Shown: positions 56,652 through 64,000 of the stretch, piece after piece | Layout of the letters: each line of letters begins with the position of its first letter | Numbering within the stretch: the stretch's first letter is position 1 | NCBI GenBank assembly: GCA_945956935.1 | Contig: CAMFJD010000005.1 | Coordinates: 23,630 to 87,629 of the forward strand | Reading direction: 5' to 3' | Source: an uncultured Bacillota bacterium | GTDB taxonomy: Bacteria > Bacillota_I > Bacilli_A > Culicoidibacterales > ZOR0006 | DNA length: 64,000 nucleotides | Made by a program: the position numbers and the translations under genes | The notes under the pieces: generated by a model | Database searches by the model: none | Seen by the model: only the letters and a program-made list of their open reading frames with translations | What the model was told of the DNA's origin: nothing

Positions 56652-57959
56652 ATGTTTATCGATCAGGTCAAGATATATGTTAAAGGTGGAGACGGTGGAA
56701 ATGGTATGGTTGCCTTCCGTCGCGAAAAATATGTTGATTTAGGTGGTCCAGCTGGTGGAAATGGTGGAAATGGTGGACACGTTATTTTTCAAGTAGACGA
56801 AGGATTACGTACACTTATGGATTTCCGTTATAACAAAAAATTCATGGCACCTGATGGTGGAAAAGGATTAACAAAAGGATGTCACGGTGCGAATGCTGAT
56901 GATCTTGTATTACTTGTTCCACCAGGAACAACAGTGTTTGACAATGAAACAAACCTTGTTATCGCTGATTTAATTCGTCATGGAGATCGTGCAATTATTG
57001 CAAAAGGTGGGCGTGCTGGACGTGGAAATATGTCATTTGCTACGCATAAAAATCCAGCACCAAGTATCGCCGAAAAAGGTGAGCCAGGACAAGAACGTGA
57101 ATTACGTTTAGAATTAAAATTACTGGCAGATGCGGGGCTTGTTGGTTTCCCTTCAGTTGGGAAATCGACCATTTTAGCTCATGTTTCGGCAGCAAAACCA
57201 AAAATTGCAGCATATCATTTTACGACAATTACACCTAATATAGGGGTAGTTGCAACAGAAGATCGCCGAAGTTTTGTATTGGCAGATTTACCAGGGTTAA
57301 TTGAAGGTGCACATGCAGGTCATGGATTAGGACAACAATTTTTACGTCATATTGAACGTACTCGAGTTATTATTCATGTTATTGATATGGGTGGAACTGA
57401 AGGACGCGATCCGTATGAAGATTATGTGACGATTAACAATGAATTATCACAATATCGTTACCAATTAATGGAACGTCCTATGATTGTTGTTGCCAATAAA
57501 ATGGATGAACCAATGGCAGAAGAGAATTTAGCTCGCTTCCGTGAACAAGTAGGTCCAGATGTGGATATTTTCCCAGTAATTGCTGAGTTAGATGAAGGTT
57601 TAGCAGCAGTAATGGATCGTACAATGGATCTCATTGAAACAACACCAGACTTCCCAATATATTCAGAAGAAGAAATTGAAGAAGTTGTTGTATATAAATA
57701 CCGTTCTGATGAAGAAGGCTTTACGATTAGTAAAGGAAATGAAAATGTTGGAACACGTACAACAGAGTGGATTCTTGGTGGCGATCGCCTTGAAAAATTA
57801 TTCAAGATGACAAACTTTGATCATGAAGAATCAGTTGAACGTTTTGCGAGAACGATGCGCTTAATGGGTGTTGACCAAGGGCTTCGTGATCGTGGTGCTA
57901 AAAATGGTGATAGTATTTGGATTTTAGATTATGAATTTGAATTCTTAGATGAAGAATAA
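56652..57959 (+). CDS. obgE: GTPase ObgE
   Basis: [35 protein letters not shown] and C-terminal OCT domain. Confidence 0.97.
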
Positions 57960-58021
57960 TAGAATATCCACTATCTATGTATACTAAAATAAACTGAGAG
58001 ATATCGATGTTAATAAAAATC

Positions 58022-58066
58022 AAGCTCATCAAAACGGCCAACTGGCATGAATTTGATGGGCTTATT
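58022..58066 (+). terminator. Probable terminator after obgE
   Basis: AAGCTCATCAAA ... TTTGATGGGCTT 12-bp stem with an 18-nt loop and short T tract. Confidence 0.5.
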
Positions 58067-58521
58067 TCTATGTATACGGACGAGTAGTGTACCAGGGTGA
58101 CTCACCTAGATAAACAAATAAAAGCAGGAACATAGTTAGTATGGAACTGCTTTTATTTGTGATCAAGATCAAACAATGCCGTATATGGAAATTAGGCGAT
58201 TGTAGTGAATAGATGGATACGACATCCATCAAAATACTTAGTTGAACAGTATTTGTTAAGTATTTTAAAAACTGTACAATAATGAATGAATATGGGTATC
58301 TTGTCAAGTGTTTTATTTTCACAAGATGAATAAATGGATAATAAATAGCAATTTTTTTATGACAAAAAACAGATTGAAACATGCAAATATGTAGAGAAAT
58401 AAAGAATTCTATGATAATATAAGGAAGAATTTGTCTATACATAATATAAAGAATACAAATTGTATGAAGGACAAGTTTATTTAATTGAAATTATTAAAAA
58501 ATAAACAATAGGAGACGAGAT

Positions 58522-61500
58522 ATGAGAAAAAGGAATTTTGTTAGTTCTGTAGTCGCTACAGCTTTATTTGTGACGAGTATACCAGTTCATGCAATTGAAA
58601 CGATAGAACAACAACCAGATATAGATATTGATACAATCGAACAAAGTCTTGAACAGAATGAACAACACACGGTAGAAGGAACAATCGAACTAGAGTTGTA
58701 TGTAGATGCGTCAATTATTGATGAATCAAAGATTATAATTACACTATTACCTGAATTTGGAGAAGCACAGATAACAACGCTTAATGAATCAACAGACAGG
58801 ATTCAAATTAAACGTTTAAATCACATGCGTCAGCCTATTGCTAAAGAGGAAAAAGCTTCATTTTATCATATTACATTTAGTAATTTGTCACTTGGAAATT
58901 ACACTGTATCACTGGATGCATTGGGATATATTCCATTTGAGCAAAAAGTAGCAGTGGAAACAACATCACAACGACTTGTTGTTGGTAGTCACACAACAAC
59001 TGTTGGAGAAGTGAATATTCCAGGTGTTTTTTTATCAGGCGATGTCAATGCGGATAGAACGATTAGTCAAGAGGATTATGACTTGACTCTTCAACATATG
59101 AATAGCGTGGTGAACGAAGAAACACAGCAATTTGATTTAAATAAAGATGGACAAATTGATGTTGCTGATTTAGTTATTATTCATTCAAATTTAAATGCAG
59201 AAGTACAAACAGTAGTAAGCGAAGCAACAAATCCAATTATTGATCCTAGTAACGTAAGTGCGGAAGCTATATCAGGAACATTGATAGGAAATATTCAAGA
59301 TTTATTTACATCAACACAACAAACAGTAACGGTAAGCAGTGAAAGTGAAATTTCTACTGAAAATCCAGTTGAGATTCTAATGAATCTAGCTACGCATCAA
59401 ACAACATATAATACAGATAGTTTACACGCTGAAAAAATTATCTTAACTGCTCCAACACAGAGTGCACCGACTCAAGGTGTGCTGACAATTAATGGCGAAC
59501 CGTATCCATTTACTACGGATGAAGTGCAAACGATTACAGATACAAACCAAGATATAATTACGATTGATCTAGGTAAACAAGTAGCACTTAGTGAGATTAC
59601 AATTACGATAACTGGCTCAAAGGGTAATAAAAATTTGGCAGAAATTGCGAAAATTGAACTGCTAAACAATGTATATCAAGAAATTCCAGCACCTGAAATG
59701 AATATCCCAGTTATCACAAATATTGAAAGTAGTATTGATGTATATGGAGGTATTTTAGATGTCACATGGGATGCAGTATCGAATATTACTGGCTATGAAT
59801 TGAAACTCCAAGAAGTAGATAATAATGGAAATGTTAAGTCAACAAAAGTGTATCAAACAAAAGAAACGCATTTACGACTTGAAAAATTAAATTCATATGC
59901 AACTTATCGTTTAACAATGCAATCTTTAAATCGTGAATGGAAAAGTGGTGAAAAAGAGCCAACACTCGAAGATATTGATGGACTTCCAGAAAATGTAACA
60001 TCAGAATTGACACCAATTCCATGGGAAGCTGATAGTATTGTTGAGTTTCAAATTATTCCTAGTACAGCTCCAGATCGTCCAGAAGGAATTAGTGTCACCG
60101 GTGAAATGAAGGGCTTGACTGTTTCATGGAAACAAAATAAGAAAGCGTTAGAACAACGAGTCGAATATCGTAAAATTGGCACAGAGGAATGGACAGTAGC
60201 GAGTGAGGAGTGGGTTGGAGGAACAAATTTCCGTATCAATGATTTAGAAGAAGCAGCAACATATGAAATTCGCATGCAAGCAAAAAATCATTTAGGTGTA
60301 AGCGACTATTCTGTCATGTATATTGGAACAACAAAAACAGTCCAAATACCAACTATTCCAACCTATGGTTTAATTAATCATTCGCTTGGTCAAGGATCGT
60401 TATCAGCAGGAATTGAAAGTGTACGATACCATAGTAGTGCAATCGTTTCAACTCCTGAAGCAGTTGTTGATAATGAAGGATTGACATATTTTCAAGTGAA
60501 TGATTGGGATACGGGAATTTATAGTAATCGGGGGCCAATTGTAACATTTAAAGAAACTCAAACAATTGACACAATTTCATTGGTTAAGCGTTTGGATACG
60601 AATAGTTCAACACCATATACGGTCGAAGTTCGTTATCTAGATGAGGGAGATGGCACTTGGAAAGATTTAGGAACGACACTCGAGTCGAAAAATGGGTACA
60701 TTTTTATTAAATTACCACACGCAATTCAAACAAAAGAAATTCAAATTAATCCTTCAGTGTATGGATCAGGTTATGTGACAATTTCAGAATTACGGTTTTA
60801 TGAACATGGAACGTTGGAACAAGAAATTAATGATTTATTTACAGATGCATTACAATTAGAATTACGTGAAAATGTAACATTATCCGAAATTGAGGCGTTG
60901 GAAATTCGAGTGAATACACTAGATCCAATTAATTTGGAGTATCATCCAAATCGAACAGTATTACTTGAAGAATTACAACGAGCAAAAGATCTGTATCAAG
61001 ATGTATTGTTATCAGATGAAATTATTACGATTGACACAAGTATTCAATCGGGAAGTACAGCGCTAAGTATCTCGAATAAATGGCAGTCGCTTGGGTATAC
61101 AGTTAGATCTGGTGATGAAATTACAGTATATGTTGGAACATCAGATGCGGGTCGTAAAGTAGAATTGGCTGTGAGGCAGCCATTCGCCGAGAGTGGAAAA
61201 TATCAATCGACAACAGTGACGCTACAACCTGGTAAAAATACTATTACTATTCCGAATATTCATAGTCTAGATGCTGAAAATGGTGGTACGCTGTATGTAC
61301 GTACAACATGGGATAATGAAAAATCACAGCCAACATATAAAATCCGAGTGAGCGGTGCAACAAAAGTACCAATGCTAAATGTCAATAATGTTATTGGCGA
61401 TGAAACAGAGATGAAAAATCGGATTCGGACATACATTCGTGAATTGAAAACTTTTGTACCAAATTTACCTAATTTATATACAGATCAAAAAGATCCAGCT

Positions 61501-63849
61501 AATAATATTTATCCATATGATGAAGCCACATCAGTAATGAATAGTACTGATATTGAAGGAGATCGATTCACATTAACTATCCCAACGACACAAGTATTAA
61601 AGGGAATTACGGATGGATTAAGCAGTGAAGATGACCAAGTAGAACGTCTATATAACACTATTTTGGCATGGGAACAATTCGTGATGATGACATATGCGAA
61701 AAAAGGTGTATATGAAACTGCACTTGATCTCAACAGTGATGGTACGATTGATACAGAAGAGGCTAATTTCTTTAAGCAAAACCGTGCTCCTAGAACGCGA
61801 ATTAATATTAAATATCAACGTATGTTTGCTGGTGCAGCAGGGTATGCATCGAGTGATCACATTGGAATTCAATTTGGACTTGTGCCTTCATTAATGCAAG
61901 GTATACCTTACCAAATTGATGAAAATGGAAGCGTTCTAAACGCAGATGAAGCAAAATTTTTCGGTTGGCTTATTGCACATGAAATGGGACATGTTGTTGA
62001 TATCAGTAAACGTACATATAGTGAAGTTTCAAATAACATCTTATCATTGATTAGTCAAACATTTGATGATCAAGATGAGTCACGTTTAGAATCTTCTGGG
62101 ATGTATGCGAAAATTTATGATAAGGTAACATCTGGTTCAGTAGGTATTTCATCAGATGTGTTTGTAACGCTAGGAATGTTTTGGCAATTACAACTAGCTT
62201 ATGAAAATCAGTCGACAGCAGCAATATTACAAACGAGTTTTGATGATGATTTAAGTAATGATTCGTACTATACAAAAATGAATCAATTGTATCGTTCATT
62301 ATCATCAGAAATGCAAAAATTAGATAAAGATCAATTATTAATTAGAGTTGCTTCAGACGCAGCTCAAAGAGATTTACGAGGATTCTTCCAAGCGTGGGGT
62401 ATTCAAGCTGATAGCGATACAGCTATTTATTTGACACAAAAAGGCTACCAACAAGAAACTCGTCCAATTCAATATTTGAATGATCAGGCACGTCGAATGC
62501 GTTTGGCAAATGAAGGTGTCATGGCTGAAGGAACAACAACAAAAGCTACGTTTTTAGATGGAATAACTGATGGTGATCGTGTGAGTGCGAATACGGTGCC
62601 ATTATCATTAACAACGTCGCAAAGTCAGGAATCAATTTTAGGATATGAAATTATTGTTAATGGAGAAGTTGCAGGTTTTGTTGAAAGCACGGGAGATGTC
62701 ACGACATATCATTTTAATCCAAGTCCGCTAAATAATCGCGTATTTAGTATTGATGTTCGTGCATATGATTACCATTTGAATGCAGCTGAAGTAGCACATG
62801 TGGGAACAATAAAAATAGCACATGATGGACGTATTTCTAAGACATCTTGGAGTGTTTCATCAAATGAAACAGTTGCAGAGCATTCAAATAGTGATATGAA
62901 TACAAGTATTCAAACAGCTATTGATAATGATTCAACAACAGCACACACTGTGCAAAAAACATCTGGTGATCCATATATCATAATTGATATGAATAAAAAT
63001 GCACCGCTTGTTGGTTTCCGTTATACGGCACCAGTAAGTGAAAATGCAAATGTATTGACCAAATTATTTGCCAGTCAAAAAATTGCCTCAGATGCTTTAA
63101 GTAATTATGTGATTCAAGTAAGTACAGATGGGCAGGAATGGACGCAAGTAAGTAGTGGGAGAATGAATGTAACTTCACAGAATCCAACACAAACAATTTA
63201 TTTTGAAAAACCAGGAACATCCGGTGGAAATCAGTATTGGATGCAAAATGCACAGTATGTCAAAATTATTGCGAAAGGTGCTACGAGCTTTAGTGTGGCA
63301 GAATTAGATTTGCTATCACCGACAGGTGATAATATTGAAATTGGCATTGAGCAAGCTGATGGTCAATTTACAAATGGAGTCGGAACATTAAAAACAGCGT
63401 TTGAATATGCACCGGGCAAATCAATTCCAGCAGGATCTTTGATTGTTACTGGATCATACCGTGGCTATCCAATTTATAATGTACCACTTGTTCTCGATGA
63501 AAATAATGATAATATTGCATACAATGCAAAAGCAATTGTACTGGCTGAGTTACCTGAAGGTACAGTACCTACAGAAGTAGCGAACGGAAGTTGGATTTAT
63601 TGGATTGAGCCACAGCATTTAGCAGAGTTTACAGCAACGAGTATTGTGGCGGAATTGTATCGTATTAATGATATTGCGACTTTAGATGGTCAACGCCTTG
63701 TTTCAGATACATTTACAATAGATGTTCCTGAAGTATTGCCTGAGATTGAATTTACACAATCAATGCTTAGAATGGTGAATCATGTTCAAGAATTTAGTAC
63801 AACAGACTTAGAGAATGTAAAGGAGCAAGCAAATGAAAAGACTGAATAA
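58522..63849 (+). CDS. Secreted multidomain M60-like (enhancin/mucinase-type) zinc metalloprotease with dockerin-like, FN3 and CBM32/discoidin-like domains
   Basis: Signal peptide ending VHA; paired Ca loops GDVNADRTISQED (59038-) and DLNKDGQIDVAD (59134-); FN3 patterns LDVTWDAV and LTVSWK..YEIRMQAKN; HEMGH-x10-E at 61978-62025; no LPxTG, SLH or TM at the C-terminus. Confidence 0.85.
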   Translation: MRKRNFVSSVVATALFVTSIPVHAIETIEQQPDIDIDTIEQSLEQNEQHTVEGTIELELYVDASIIDESKIIITLLPEFGEAQITTLNESTDRIQIKRLNHMRQPIAKEEKASFYHITFSNLSLGNYTVSLDALGYIPFEQKVAVETTSQRLVVGSHTTTVGEVNIPGVFLSGDVNADRTISQEDYDLTLQHMNSVVNEETQQFDLNKDGQIDVADLVIIHSNLNAEVQTVVSEATNPIIDPSNVSAEAISGTLIGNIQDLFTSTQQTVTVSSESEISTENPVEILMNLATHQTTYNTDSLHAEKIILTAPTQSAPTQGVLTINGEPYPFTTDEVQTITDTNQDIITIDLGKQVALSEITITITGSKGNKNLAEIAKIELLNNVYQEIPAPEMNIPVITNIESSIDVYGGILDVTWDAVSNITGYELKLQEVDNNGNVKSTKVYQTKETHLRLEKLNSYATYRLTMQSLNREWKSGEKEPTLEDIDGLPENVTSELTPIPWEADSIVEFQIIPSTAPDRPEGISVTGEMKGLTVSWKQNKKALEQRVEYRKIGTEEWTVASEEWVGGTNFRINDLEEAATYEIRMQAKNHLGVSDYSVMYIGTTKTVQIPTIPTYGLINHSLGQGSLSAGIESVRYHSSAIVSTPEAVVDNEGLTYFQVNDWDTGIYSNRGPIVTFKETQTIDTISLVKRLDTNSSTPYTVEVRYLDEGDGTWKDLGTTLESKNGYIFIKLPHAIQTKEIQINPSVYGSGYVTISELRFYEHGTLEQEINDLFTDALQLELRENVTLSEIEALEIRVNTLDPINLEYHPNRTVLLEELQRAKDLYQDVLLSDEIITIDTSIQSGSTALSISNKWQSLGYTVRSGDEITVYVGTSDAGRKVELAVRQPFAESGKYQSTTVTLQPGKNTITIPNIHSLDAENGGTLYVRTTWDNEKSQPTYKIRVSGATKVPMLNVNNVIGDETEMKNRIRTYIRELKTFVPNLPNLYTDQKDPANNIYPYDEATSVMNSTDIEGDRFTLTIPTTQVLKGITDGLSSEDDQVERLYNTILAWEQFVMMTYAKKGVYETALDLNSDGTIDTEEANFFKQNRAPRTRINIKYQRMFAGAAGYASSDHIGIQFGLVPSLMQGIPYQIDENGSVLNADEAKFFGWLIAHEMGHVVDISKRTYSEVSNNILSLISQTFDDQDESRLESSGMYAKIYDKVTSGSVGISSDVFVTLGMFWQLQLAYENQSTAAILQTSFDDDLSNDSYYTKMNQLYRSLSSEMQKLDKDQLLIRVASDAAQRDLRGFFQAWGIQADSDTAIYLTQKGYQQETRPIQYLNDQARRMRLANEGVMAEGTTTKATFLDGITDGDRVSANTVPLSLTTSQSQESILGYEIIVNGEVAGFVESTGDVTTYHFNPSPLNNRVFSIDVRAYDYHLNAAEVAHVGTIKIAHDGRISKTSWSVSSNETVAEHSNSDMNTSIQTAIDNDSTTAHTVQKTSGDPYIIIDMNKNAPLVGFRYTAPVSENANVLTKLFASQKIASDALSNYVIQVSTDGQEWTQVSSGRMNVTSQNPTQTIYFEKPGTSGGNQYWMQNAQYVKIIAKGATSFSVAELDLLSPTGDNIEIGIEQADGQFTNGVGTLKTAFEYAPGKSIPAGSLIVTGSYRGYPIYNVPLVLDENNDNIAYNAKAIVLAELPEGTVPTEVANGSWIYWIEPQHLAEFTATSIVAELYRINDIATLDGQRLVSDTFTIDVPEVLPEIEFTQSMLRMVNHVQEFSTTDLENVKEQANEKTE

Positions 63850-64000
63850 AAAGGTTGTTAAGCTTCCGCTTGCTGTTGCTGCGAGTATTGGGATCGCTAC
63901 GCCATTTATCGCTCATACACAAGATACAAATACACTGATAACTGATAAAGTATTGGTGTTAGAACAAACAAGCGCACATGATTTTCATGTTTCGCTAGAT
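63833..64000 (+). CDS. Secreted protein, 3'-truncated by window edge
   Basis: SD AAGGAG; MKRLNKKVVKLPLAVAASIGIATPFIAHTQ...VLVLEQTSAHDFHVSLD open to the window end; overlaps the upstream gene by 17 nt; absent from the ORF track. Confidence 0.75.
   Translation, partial: MKRLNKKVVKLPLAVAASIGIATPFIAHTQDTNTLITDKVLVLEQTSAHDFHVSLD

What the first reader, a model, noticed from the sequence alone, without database searches (positions are those of the whole stretch)
58522..64000. Dockerin-bearing M60-like glycopeptidase with an overlapping secreted partner: a candidate cohesin-dockerin surface complex
Seen: the 1775-aa protein has a signal peptide, two calcium-loop repeats 31 residues apart near the N-terminus (dockerin pattern), FN3 and discoidin-like modules, and HEMGH-x10-E. 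It has no LPxTG, SLH or TM anchor. A second signal-peptide gene starts inside its last 17 nt with its own SD. Known: M60-like HEXXH-E proteases cleave mucin-type O-glycoproteins; dockerins bind cohesins; Clostridium perfringens uses non-cellulosomal cohesin-dockerin pairs among secreted glycoside hydrolases. Inference: the partner may be a cohesin-containing cell-wall scaffold that displays the protease as a mini-cellulosome-like host-glycoprotein complex. Its first mature residues (VLVLEQTSAHDFHVSLD) are beta-strand-like but too short to call.
Basis: partly seen in the sequence, partly recalled or inferred. Interest (0 to 1): 0.75.

Follow-up and report, generated by a model that had tools for sequence, protein, structure and literature searches.

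The report
Mucin-type protease docked to cell-surface anchor
A fish-gut bacterium encodes a giant secreted mucin-type protease with a dockerin "plug", and the overlapping next gene encodes a surface-anchored stalk whose tip is predicted to fold as the matching cohesin "socket". The same gene pair recurs in every related locus examined, including Clostridioides difficile (CD2797 and Cwp10), but binding has not been tested.

Summary
A 1775-aa secreted protein carries Dockerin_1 above Pfam's cut-off, two FN3 modules, an M60 domain (HEMGH-x10-E) and a discoidin module, and has no anchor. A second signal-peptide gene overlaps its last 17 nt. I followed that gene past the window. It encodes about 130 aa with no sequence match, then Ig-like repeats, and it ends on another contig in LPNLG, a membrane helix and RRK. 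AlphaFold2 with Foldseek places the unmatched module among cohesins. It places the protease's N-terminus among the X-module-dockerin chains of type II complexes. Among 80 related loci from named species, 79 carry the same module in the gene directly downstream; the 80th contig ends inside the protease gene. The anchors differ: LPxTG, membrane helix, CWB2, SLH, cell-wall-binding repeats. This genome has one dockerin and one such module. The best reading is a dedicated one-enzyme cohesin-dockerin tether for a mucin-type O-glycopeptidase. Binding and substrate are untested, and no sequence profile links the module to cohesins. Earlier reports of this scan describe the same module in other genomes. 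I found no paper describing it. New here are the C. difficile CD2797-Cwp10 link and the Culicoidibacterales, sortase-type version.

The parts
58522..63849 (+). Gene for the 1775-aa secreted M60-like glycopeptidase. Order of modules: signal peptide, X module, dockerin, beta-rich region, 2 FN3, M60 catalytic domain, F5/8 type C domain, C-terminal region. No anchor.
58522..58593 (+). Signal peptide, residues 1-24 (MRKRNFVSSVVATALFVTSIPVHA). Cleavage after VHA is inferred by eye.
   Evidence: read from the sequence, no predictor was run
58669..59016 (+). X-module-like beta-sandwich directly before the dockerin, residues ~50-165.
   Evidence: AF2 model on alignment A3. Foldseek aligns ~180 columns to the XDoc chains of type II complexes. 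The module is conserved across the family.
59038..59196 (+). Dockerin, residues 173-225, with two calcium loops at D174 and D205, each followed by a helix.
   Evidence: Pfam Dockerin_1 35.9 bits against a cut-off of 22.9. It is the only Dockerin_1 in the genome. G173, D174, D185, D205, L206, D209 and D216 are invariant in 12 family members. Model pLDDT is 88-97 in this part.
59755..60324 (+). Two FN3 modules, residues 412-481 and 545-601.
61549..62400 (+). Peptidase_M60 catalytic domain, residues 1010-1293. HEMGH is at 61978-61992 and the third zinc ligand E1168 at 62023-62025.
   Evidence: Pfam E 1e-18. H1153, E1154, H1157 and E1168 are invariant. The closest solved structures are the C. perfringens glycopeptidases ZmpB, ZmpA and ZmpC.
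62884..63279 (+). F5/8 type C (discoidin, CBM32-like) module, residues 1455-1586.
63820..63825 (+). Shine-Dalgarno AAGGAG for the partner gene, 7 nt before its ATG and inside the end of the M60 gene.
63833..64000 (+). Start of the partner (anchor) gene. It overlaps the M60 gene by 17 nt and runs past the window to the end of contig C5 (423 aa there), then continues on contig C16. Order of modules: signal peptide, cohesin-fold module (residues ~38-165), at least 5 Ig-like PF16403 repeats, a ~110-aa conserved module, a linker, then LPNLG + membrane helix + RRK.
63944..64000 (+). First strands of the cryptic cohesin-fold module. The module runs from residue ~38 to ~165, which is about 330 nt beyond the window end.
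   Evidence: AF2 pLDDT 83.4, pTM 0.76, 9 strands. The top Foldseek matches in PDB are cohesins. It is the only copy in the genome.

Best explanation
This is a two-gene, probably translationally coupled operon for surface display of one enzyme. Gene 1 encodes a Sec-secreted, multi-modular M60-like zinc O-glycopeptidase. It is closest to the Clostridium perfringens ZmpA/B/C mucin-type glycopeptidases and has no anchor of its own. Near its N-terminus it carries an X-module plus dockerin, arranged as in type II XDoc. Gene 2 encodes a surface protein with an N-terminal ~130-aa module that has the cohesin fold but is too divergent for sequence models. That module sits on a stalk of Ig-like repeats, held at the cell by a C-terminal sorting-signal-like LPNLG + membrane helix + RRK. 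After secretion, the calcium-loaded dockerin binds the cohesin one-to-one. The protease is thereby held at the tip of the stalk, where it can cut O-glycosylated (mucin-type) host glycoproteins in the fish gut close to the cell. Shown here: the domain content, the predicted folds, strict gene-pair conservation with anchor swapping, and a single copy of each module in this genome. Inferred: the physical binding, its calcium dependence, the substrate, and whether the LPNLG signal is cut by the sortase or simply acts as a membrane anchor.
For: 1. Dockerin_1 scores above Pfam's cut-off. Its calcium ligands are as invariant across 12 family members at 30-49% identity as the catalytic HExxH...E.
2. 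The AF2 model of X module plus dockerin has as its 10 best PDB matches only XDoc chains of type II cohesin-XDoc complexes (E 5e-5 to 2e-3, ~180 aligned columns).
3. The AF2 model of the partner's N-module (pLDDT 83, 9 strands) matches cohesins in 14 of its 16 hits at E<=1e-3. These include the C. perfringens non-cellulosomal cohesins 2jh2, 2vo8 and 2w1n, type II cohesins, and A. fulgidus 2xdh (TM 0.57/0.62).
4. Synteny: in 8 contexts fetched through protein look-ups, the next gene on the same strand carries this module.
5. In 80 loci from named species, an X-Doc HMM hits 78 M60 ORFs (the other two are truncated). A first-round N-module HMM hits 68 loci at E<1e-8. After 3 rounds it hits 79 of 80, exactly once per locus and always directly downstream, with gaps of -76 to +203 nt. 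The exceptions are L073 (fused in one ORF), L075 (-249 nt) and L061, where the protease ORF is broken. The missing locus ends inside the M60 gene.
6. Reverse direction: in 401 genomes sampled from the phylum, only 2 have the module, and both have it directly after an M60-XDoc gene. Within the order, 2 of 8 genomes have the module, and the same 2 have the full M60-Doc orthologue.
7. The 17-nt gene overlap is conserved in the congener G007.
8. The part of the partner behind the module changes with lineage: LPxTG, C-terminal membrane helix, CWB2 (C. difficile Cwp10), SLH, cell-wall-binding repeats. This is what one expects if the module's job is to connect the protease to whatever anchor the host uses.
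9. This genome has exactly one dockerin and one N-module. Its second M60 paralogue, which has no dockerin, has no such neighbour.
10. In C. difficile, both CD2797 and cwp10 fall when c-di-GMP is raised (-7.15 and -4.06 fold; PMC6200980).
Against: No binding data exist for any member. No complex could be modelled with the tools available. The N-module has no sequence-level link to cohesins:
- The Pfam Cohesin model gives no hit in the genome even at E<=10.
- Profiles of 7 and of 66 family members find no PDB cohesin.
- hhalign against 7 type I CipA cohesins gives probability 0.1%, though that template set is narrow.
Foldseek TM-scores are moderate (0.45-0.57, rmsd ~5 A), and beta-sandwiches are a common fold. 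The two models rest on shallow alignments of 7 and 9 sequences. LPNLG is not a canonical LPxTG, whereas the other sortase substrates in this genome are. The link between C5 and C16 is inferred from a unique 55-nt overlap, and the number of repeats in between is unknown. The PMC6200980 authors say the C. difficile genes do not form an operon.
Confidence: 0.72

Rival explanations
1. The partner is an accessory protein that does not bind the dockerin. It could be an adhesin that brings substrate close, or a dedicated inhibitor or maturation factor for the protease. In that case the dockerin is a calcium-stabilised structural element or binds some other ligand.
For: There is no sequence homology to cohesins. 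Surface residues of the module are poorly conserved. Strict synteny would fit any obligate functional partnership.
Against: Both halves independently match the two sides of the same known complex type, type II cohesin and XDoc. The anchor swapping behind a constant N-module points to a connector role. The dockerin's calcium ligands are invariant. No other candidate receptor exists in this genome.
Confidence: 0.12
2. The two proteins form a complex, but through other surfaces, for example the protease's C-terminal region or the partner's Ig-like or ~110-aa modules. The cohesin-like and dockerin-like folds would then be coincidental.
For: The complex was not modelled. Long partners share an extra conserved module.
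Against: The shortest partners (about 250-320 aa) consist only of signal peptide, N-module, linker and membrane helix. The N-module is therefore the only part common to all partners. The Ig and ~110-aa modules are missing from most of them.
Confidence: 0.08
3. The gene pair is real and the tether works, but the enzyme's target is not host mucin. It could be dietary or microbial O-glycoproteins, or the bacterium's own surface glycoproteins.
For: The substrate is only inferred from similarity to ZmpA/B/C (E 1e-24 to 1e-19). Family members occur in varied Firmicutes and in some Actinobacteria.
Against: Sources named for relatives include stool, rabbit and chicken gut samples. This organism is found in fish-gut metagenomes. 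CBM32-type modules accompany host-glycan-active enzymes (PMC3267712).
Confidence: 0.15

Closest known systems
Type II cohesin / X-module-dockerin anchoring of cellulosomes, e.g. Acetivibrio thermocellus CipA XDoc with SdbA, Orf2p/ScaB/ScaC (PDB 2b59, 5g5d, 3kcp, 4fl4) and A. cellulolyticus ScaA/ScaB (4wi0, 4u3s)
   Same: A beta-sandwich X module sits directly before a two-loop dockerin. The cohesin sits on a cell-surface-anchored protein. These chains are the best structural matches of both models. The two dockerin repeats are unequal: the second loop and helix are far better conserved, which suggests a single binding mode.
   Different: Here the XDoc is near the N-terminus of an enzyme, not at the C-terminus of a scaffoldin. 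The cargo is one protease, not a multi-enzyme scaffold. The cohesin is invisible to Pfam Cohesin. The anchor is a sortase-type or membrane signal on an Ig-like stalk, not SLH.
Non-cellulosomal cohesin-dockerin pairs of Clostridium perfringens glycoside hydrolases (NagH cohesin with NagJ dockerin, PDB 2ozn; cohesins 2jh2, 2vo8, 2w1n)
   Same: These are cohesin-dockerin pairs used by a gut Firmicute on enzymes that attack host glycans. Their cohesins are the top structural matches of the partner module.
   Different: They link secreted enzymes to each other and sit inside the enzymes themselves. Here a dedicated, non-catalytic, cell-anchored receptor is encoded next door in a fixed two-gene unit.
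Single-cohesin anchoring proteins: A. thermocellus OlpA and OlpC; Ruminococcus flavefaciens ScaE (sortase-anchored, PDB 2zf9)
   Same: One cohesin on a wall-anchored protein displays a single dockerin-bearing protein. ScaE uses an LPXTG signal, as do the Clostridium members of this family.
   Different: Those cohesins are recognisable by sequence and serve many dockerins. Here there is a 1:1 pair, and this genome has only one dockerin.
Clostridium perfringens ZmpA/ZmpB/ZmpC and Bacillus cereus BcM60 O-glycopeptidases (PDB 5kdn, 7jfs, 6xsx, 6xsz, 9pl8)
   Same: The closest solved relatives of the catalytic part (E 1.5e-24 to 5e-10). They share the HExxH...E gluzincin site and CBM32-type accessory modules.
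   Different: Identity is low and limited to the catalytic region. I did not examine whether those enzymes have an XDoc or a partner gene.
Clostridioides difficile CD2797 ('calcium-binding adhesion protein') and Cwp10 (CD2796) in the slpA locus
   Same: CD2797 is a family member at 40% identity with the same architecture. The gene after it, Cwp10, starts with the same N-module. Both fall when c-di-GMP is raised (PMC6200980).
   Different: The anchor is three CWB2 repeats. The genes are about 200 nt apart, not overlapping. A c-di-GMP-I riboswitch precedes CD2797, whereas none is found upstream here. No paper I found mentions a dockerin, a cohesin or a peptidase role for this pair.

Membership tests
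Dockerin (Pfam PF00404, Dockerin_1) | The profile matches above the curated cut-off and covers both repeats | tested here: met
   35.9 bits against a cut-off of 22.9; residues 173-225 match profile positions 2-57 of 57. It is found again by a whole-genome search.
Dockerin (Pfam PF00404, Dockerin_1) | Two EF-hand-like calcium loops (D-x-[ND]-x-D...D), each followed by a helix, about 30 residues apart | tested here: met
   The loops are DVNADRTISQED (174-185) and DLNKDGQIDVAD (205-216). The model has helices at model residues 139-147 and 170-179, after the two loops, with pLDDT 88-97. The ligand positions are invariant in 12 relatives.
Dockerin (Pfam PF00404, Dockerin_1) | Calcium-dependent binding to a cohesin | not testable with these tools
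   This needs a pull-down, ITC or SPR with and without EDTA.
Type II-like X-module-dockerin (XDoc) | An Ig-like X module directly N-terminal to the dockerin, with overall similarity to solved XDoc structures | tested here: met
   The 10 best Foldseek matches are all XDoc chains, with ~180 aligned columns, E 5e-5 to 2e-3 and TM 0.39-0.51. The model is of moderate quality in the X part (pLDDT 50-84).
Cohesin (Pfam PF00963) | Sequence-profile match to the Cohesin family | tested here: not met
   No Cohesin hit in the partner at E<=1 or anywhere in the genome at E<=10. Family profiles find no PDB cohesin. hhalign against 7 CipA cohesins gives probability 0.1%, though that template set is narrow.
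Cohesin (fold level) | A nine-stranded beta-sandwich of about 130-150 aa whose closest structures are cohesins | tested here: met
   The AF2 model has 9 strands, pLDDT 83.4 and pTM 0.76. Of its 16 PDB matches at E<=1e-3, 14 are cohesins, with probability 1.00 and TM 0.45-0.57. This is a prediction, not a solved structure.
Cohesin (function) | Binds a dockerin | not testable with these tools
   It is supported only indirectly, by strict adjacency to the dockerin-bearing gene in 79 of 80 loci and in both of the 2 reverse hits.
Peptidase M60 / M60-like gluzincin O-glycopeptidases | PF13402 match with HExxH and a downstream Glu as third zinc ligand | tested here: met
   E 1e-18, 68.3 bits against a cut-off of 25.8. 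HEMGH at 1153-1157 and E1168 are invariant. The nearest structures are ZmpB, ZmpA and ZmpC.
Peptidase M60 / M60-like gluzincin O-glycopeptidases | Cleaves O-glycosylated (mucin-type) peptides | not testable with these tools
   This needs an enzyme assay.
Sortase-anchored (LPXTG) surface proteins | A C-terminal LPXTG motif, then a hydrophobic segment and a basic tail, with a sortase in the genome | tested here: inconclusive
   The tail is QLPNLG-MQLAQLFIGIGAAILAISGVVLFFM-RRK, with Leu where Thr is expected. Other substrates in this genome have LPETG, LPSTG, LPQTG or LPNTG. The genome has one sortase gene. The C-terminus lies on contig C16 and is joined by inference.

The most novel reading that the evidence does not exclude
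The ~130-aa module founds a cohesin family that current sequence models cannot see. It would exist only as an operon-encoded one-to-one receptor for the XDoc of one family of giant M60 O-glycopeptidases. The related-loci scan of one genome per species returned 533 relatives of the protease. The receptor has been re-fitted repeatedly with whatever anchor the host uses. If so, in Clostridioides difficile the unexplained 'calcium-binding adhesion protein' CD2797 is a mucin-type protease. It would be plugged into the S-layer through Cwp10 and switched off by c-di-GMP together with flagella. That would give a defined, testable surface mucinase in a major pathogen.
Probability: 0.6. Interest if true: 0.7.

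Novelty: new variant of a known kind. Interest (0 to 1): 0.6.

Why it matters
Cohesin-dockerin display is a textbook mechanism for plant-fibre degradation. Here the same plug-and-socket logic appears to serve a protease that targets host glycoproteins. The receptor is one that annotation pipelines miss, so the partner genes are currently 'hypothetical' or known only by their anchor.

The pair is widespread in gut Firmicutes. It includes C. difficile CD2797 and Cwp10, two slpA-locus genes for which the papers I read give no function. The prediction is simple to test by a binding assay or by a cwp10 deletion that releases CD2797.

If it holds, it would explain how these anchor-less 200-kDa enzymes stay on the cell. 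It would also add a compact, orthogonal cohesin-dockerin pair for protein display. For this genome alone, the finding is one more member of a module this scan has already met many times.

Tried and rejected
- Sequence searches with the partner N-module found nothing useful. phmmer against PDB gave no real hit. phmmer against 1.8 billion representatives gave one orthologue and one spurious repeat protein. Profiles of 7 and of 66 members against PDB gave nothing. Pfam gave nothing.
- hhalign of the 66-member profile against 7 real CipA type I cohesins gave probability 0.1%. The template set is narrow, so this is a weak negative.
- I looked for a c-di-GMP riboswitch upstream, as in C. difficile CD2797. 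Rfam found none in 57800-58700.
- Promoter and terminator scans of 57800-64000 were no better than shuffles.
- The search for related loci with the 7-member N-module alignment failed for lack of a conserved stretch. I used the protease alignment instead.
- I hoped for a negative control among family members without a Pfam dockerin call (P0089, P0075, P0039). All three have a visible dockerin and a partner, so the family offers no dockerin-less control. The only control is the unrelated M60 paralogue on C9.
- Per-column conservation of the module mainly shows the alternating hydrophobic core of a beta-sandwich and does not single out a binding face.
- No RNA runs hold this sequence, so co-transcription could not be checked.
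- A model of the complex was not possible, because the structure tool takes single chains only.
Full report
**The observation.** The window lies at C5:23630-87629 of a 1.84-Mb, 52-contig genome. The ORF at 58522..63849 (+) encodes 1775 aa. Pfam finds Dockerin_1 at residues 173-225 (35.9 bits, cut-off 22.9), two fn3 modules (412-481 and 545-601), Peptidase_M60 at 1010-1293 (E 1e-18) and F5_F8_type_C at 1455-1586. The calcium loops begin at D174 and D205. The zinc site is HEMGH at 1153-1157 with E1168. No anchor motif is present. A second ORF starts at the ATG at 63833, 17 nt before the first gene's stop codon ends at 63849. An AAGGAG at 63820-63825 precedes it, and its product starts with a signal-peptide-like sequence.

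**The partner beyond the window.** Contig C5 continues for 1102 nt past the window, and the partner ORF stays open to its end, giving 423 aa. From residue ~170 it has three Bact_surface_Ig-like (PF16403) repeats. Residues 30-165 match no Pfam family. The assembly breaks inside such repeats in three genes. The last 55 nt of C5 occur exactly, and only, at positions 54-108 of contig C16. C16 then continues the reading frame with another Ig-like repeat, a ~110-aa module and a linker. The protein ends ...QLPNLGMQLAQLFIGIGAAILAISGVVLFFMRRK. This is a sorting-signal layout, but with Leu in place of the Thr of LPxTG. The other candidate sortase substrates in this genome carry LPETG, LPSTG, LPQTG or LPNTG, and one sortase gene is present. 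The partner is therefore a surface-retained stalk protein of at least ~670 aa. The repeat number is unknown, and whether it is wall-linked or membrane-anchored is open.

**Is the N-module a cohesin?** By sequence it is not. The Pfam Cohesin model finds nothing in the genome even at E<=10. phmmer and family profiles find no PDB cohesin. An exhaustive search of 1.8 billion representatives returns only one orthologue. hhalign of a 66-member profile against seven genuine CipA cohesins gives probability 0.1%. By predicted fold it is. AlphaFold2 on a 7-sequence alignment gives a nine-stranded sandwich with pLDDT 83.4 and pTM 0.76. Foldseek against PDB returns cohesins for 14 of the 16 matches at E<=1e-3. 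First come the non-cellulosomal C. perfringens cohesins (2jh2, 2vo8, 2w1n), then type II cohesins and A. fulgidus 2xdh, with TM 0.45-0.57.

The protease's N-terminus (residues 45-239) was modelled separately. It folds as a beta-sandwich followed by a two-helix dockerin. Its ten best PDB matches are all X-module-dockerin chains of type II complexes (4wi0_B, 2b59_B, 3kcp_A, 5g5d_B and others), aligned over ~180 columns. Two independent models thus point to the two sides of the same known complex type.

**Comparative evidence.** The protease belongs to a large family, with 113 clusters in the protein search. It includes proteins annotated 'M60 family metallopeptidase' in Clostridium tertium, Turicibacter and Romboutsia. 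In C. difficile the member is annotated 'calcium-binding adhesion protein'. The closest relative, at 69% identity, comes from a Culicoidibacterales MAG, which places this organism.

In eight contexts fetched by protein look-up, the next gene on the same strand starts with a signal peptide and the same module. The consensus motif is ...V-S-L-D-N-x-x-D-I-V-K-S-L-Q-x-S-L. Three family members without a Pfam dockerin call still have a dockerin that is visible by eye. In an alignment of 12 members, the dockerin positions G173, D174, D185, D205, L206, D209 and D216 are invariant, as are H1153, E1154, H1157 and E1168.

A scan of one genome per species found 533 relatives, and I analysed the best 80 loci:
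- An X-Doc HMM hits 78 of the 80 protease ORFs; the other two are truncated.
- The 7-sequence N-module HMM hits 44 loci.
- One round of rebuilding gives 68 loci at E<1e-8 over more than 100 model positions.
- Three rounds give 79 of 80, one hit per locus, always on the same strand directly after the protease gene, with gaps of -76 to +203 nt. The exceptions are L073 (fused in one ORF), L075 (-249 nt) and L061, where the protease ORF is broken.
- The single missing locus ends inside the protease gene.

In the reverse direction, only 2 of 401 genomes sampled from the phylum have the module. In both, it directly follows an M60-XDoc gene. Within the order, 2 of 8 genomes have the module, and the same 2 have the orthologous protease. 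In the congener G007 the same 17-nt overlap is seen.

**Anchor swapping.** What follows the module varies:
- LPxTG in many Clostridium species, with long Ig-like stalks.
- NPTTG next to a sortase gene in Romboutsia.
- A plain C-terminal membrane helix in most Erysipelotrichales and Lachnospiraceae members.
- Three CWB2 repeats in C. difficile.
- SLH in Lysinibacillus and Peptostreptococcaceae.
- Cell-wall-binding repeats in Hungatella and others.
- In one Clostridia MAG (L009), a further beta domain plus a C-terminal Dockerin_1, which makes it an adaptor.

The shortest partners consist only of signal peptide, module, linker and membrane helix. The module is therefore the only part common to all of them. 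This pattern is what one expects of a connector between the protease and the local anchoring system.

**Within this genome.** There is one Dockerin_1 and one N-module. A second M60 protein on contig C9 has a different architecture (F5/8 type C, M60-like_N, NPCBM, repeat region), no dockerin and no such neighbour. The system is a dedicated 1:1 tether, not a multi-enzyme scaffold.

**Enzyme and habitat.** The closest solved relatives of the catalytic part are the C. perfringens O-glycopeptidases ZmpB, ZmpA and ZmpC (E 1.5e-24 to 5e-19) and the B. cereus BcM60 enzymes. Nearly identical sequence occurs in fish-gut metagenomes. A mucin-type O-glycoprotein substrate is the reasonable inference, but it is untested.

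**The C. difficile link.** The C. difficile member has 1987 aa, the length implied by the coordinates of CD630_27970 given in PMC6200980. It lies in the slpA locus among CWB2 proteins. The next gene, Cwp10 (CD2796), has the N-module followed by three CWB2 repeats. Published RNA-seq shows that CD2797, which sits behind the Cdi-1-2 c-di-GMP-I riboswitch, falls 7.15-fold and cwp10 falls 4.06-fold at high c-di-GMP. The next gene, cwp11, rises. Reviews list CD2797 only as a putative calcium-binding adhesin in the slpA locus; in the locus map it is not among the CWB2 genes. I found no paper that connects CD2797 or Cwp10 with dockerin, cohesin or M60. Nakjang et al. 2012 merely tabulate two M60 proteins that carry Dockerin_1. 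Upstream of the gene in this window, no riboswitch is detectable.

**Relation to earlier notes of this scan.** After I had reached this reading, a look-up showed that follow-up agents had described the same two-gene module in at least 33 other genomes. They reached the same conclusion and rated it 'new variant of a known kind'. These are unchecked AI notes and I do not count them as evidence. I re-derived their main claims here (hidden cohesin fold, XDoc, recurrence, anchor exchange). 'Cwp10' occurred in none of them.

**Verdict.** The most likely mechanism is calcium-dependent docking of the protease's XDoc onto a sequence-cryptic cohesin at the tip of a surface-anchored Ig-like stalk. My confidence in that mechanism is about 0.72. 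Still unproven are the binding itself, the substrate, and the mode of anchoring through LPNLG. It is a new variant of a known kind: cohesin-dockerin display is well known, but this receptor family and its fixed pairing with an M60 glycopeptidase appear to be undescribed in the literature I could search.

Noticed in passing
Own genome, contig C9:8301-13337 (outside the window): A second large M60-like protein (1679-aa ORF) with F5/8 type C, M60-like_N, Peptidase_M60 (HETGH), an Ig-like module, NPCBM modules and a C-terminal repeat region. It has no dockerin and no cohesin-like neighbour.
   Followed up: partly
Own genome, contig ends: C5 end/C16 start, C31 end/C5 start, C32 start/C19 end: The assembly breaks inside PF16403 Ig-like repeats of three surface-protein genes. 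Besides the partner gene, these are an LPKTG-anchored protein and a GH18-like chitinase that has Ig-like repeats and repeated aromatic-rich C-terminal segments that look like chitin-binding modules.
   Followed up: partly
L009:11100-12395 (Clostridia MAG GCA_022799935.1): Here the partner has the N-module, a second beta-rich domain and a C-terminal Dockerin_1 (23.3 bits) in place of an anchor. It would be an adaptor that plugs into yet another cohesin, giving a two-tier arrangement.
   Followed up: partly
L073:3-6383 (Candidatus Fimicola cottocaccae MAG): The protease and the partner module lie in one 2127-aa open frame that ends in an SLH-like segment. This is either a natural fusion of enzyme and receptor or an assembly or frameshift artefact.
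   Followed up: no
Own genome C16:~310-640; also L007, L008, L021-L023, L026, L034, L035, L039, L040, L054, L061: A ~110-aa module without a Pfam match sits between the Ig-like stalk and the anchor of the partner (GVEVTIDPELKAI...IRIVDQYF). It is shared by 12 other long-stalk partners (jackhmmer E 1e-24 to 6e-61) and was found nowhere else in those loci.
   Followed up: partly
window 57960-58521: A 560-nt AT-rich gap lies between obg and the protease gene. It has no Rfam match, unlike C. difficile CD2797, which has a c-di-GMP-I riboswitch at this place.
   Followed up: partly
L075 (Eggerthella sinensis) and L078 (Collinsella sp.): The complete two-gene module also occurs in Actinomycetota gut species. 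This suggests horizontal spread beyond the Firmicutes.
   Followed up: no
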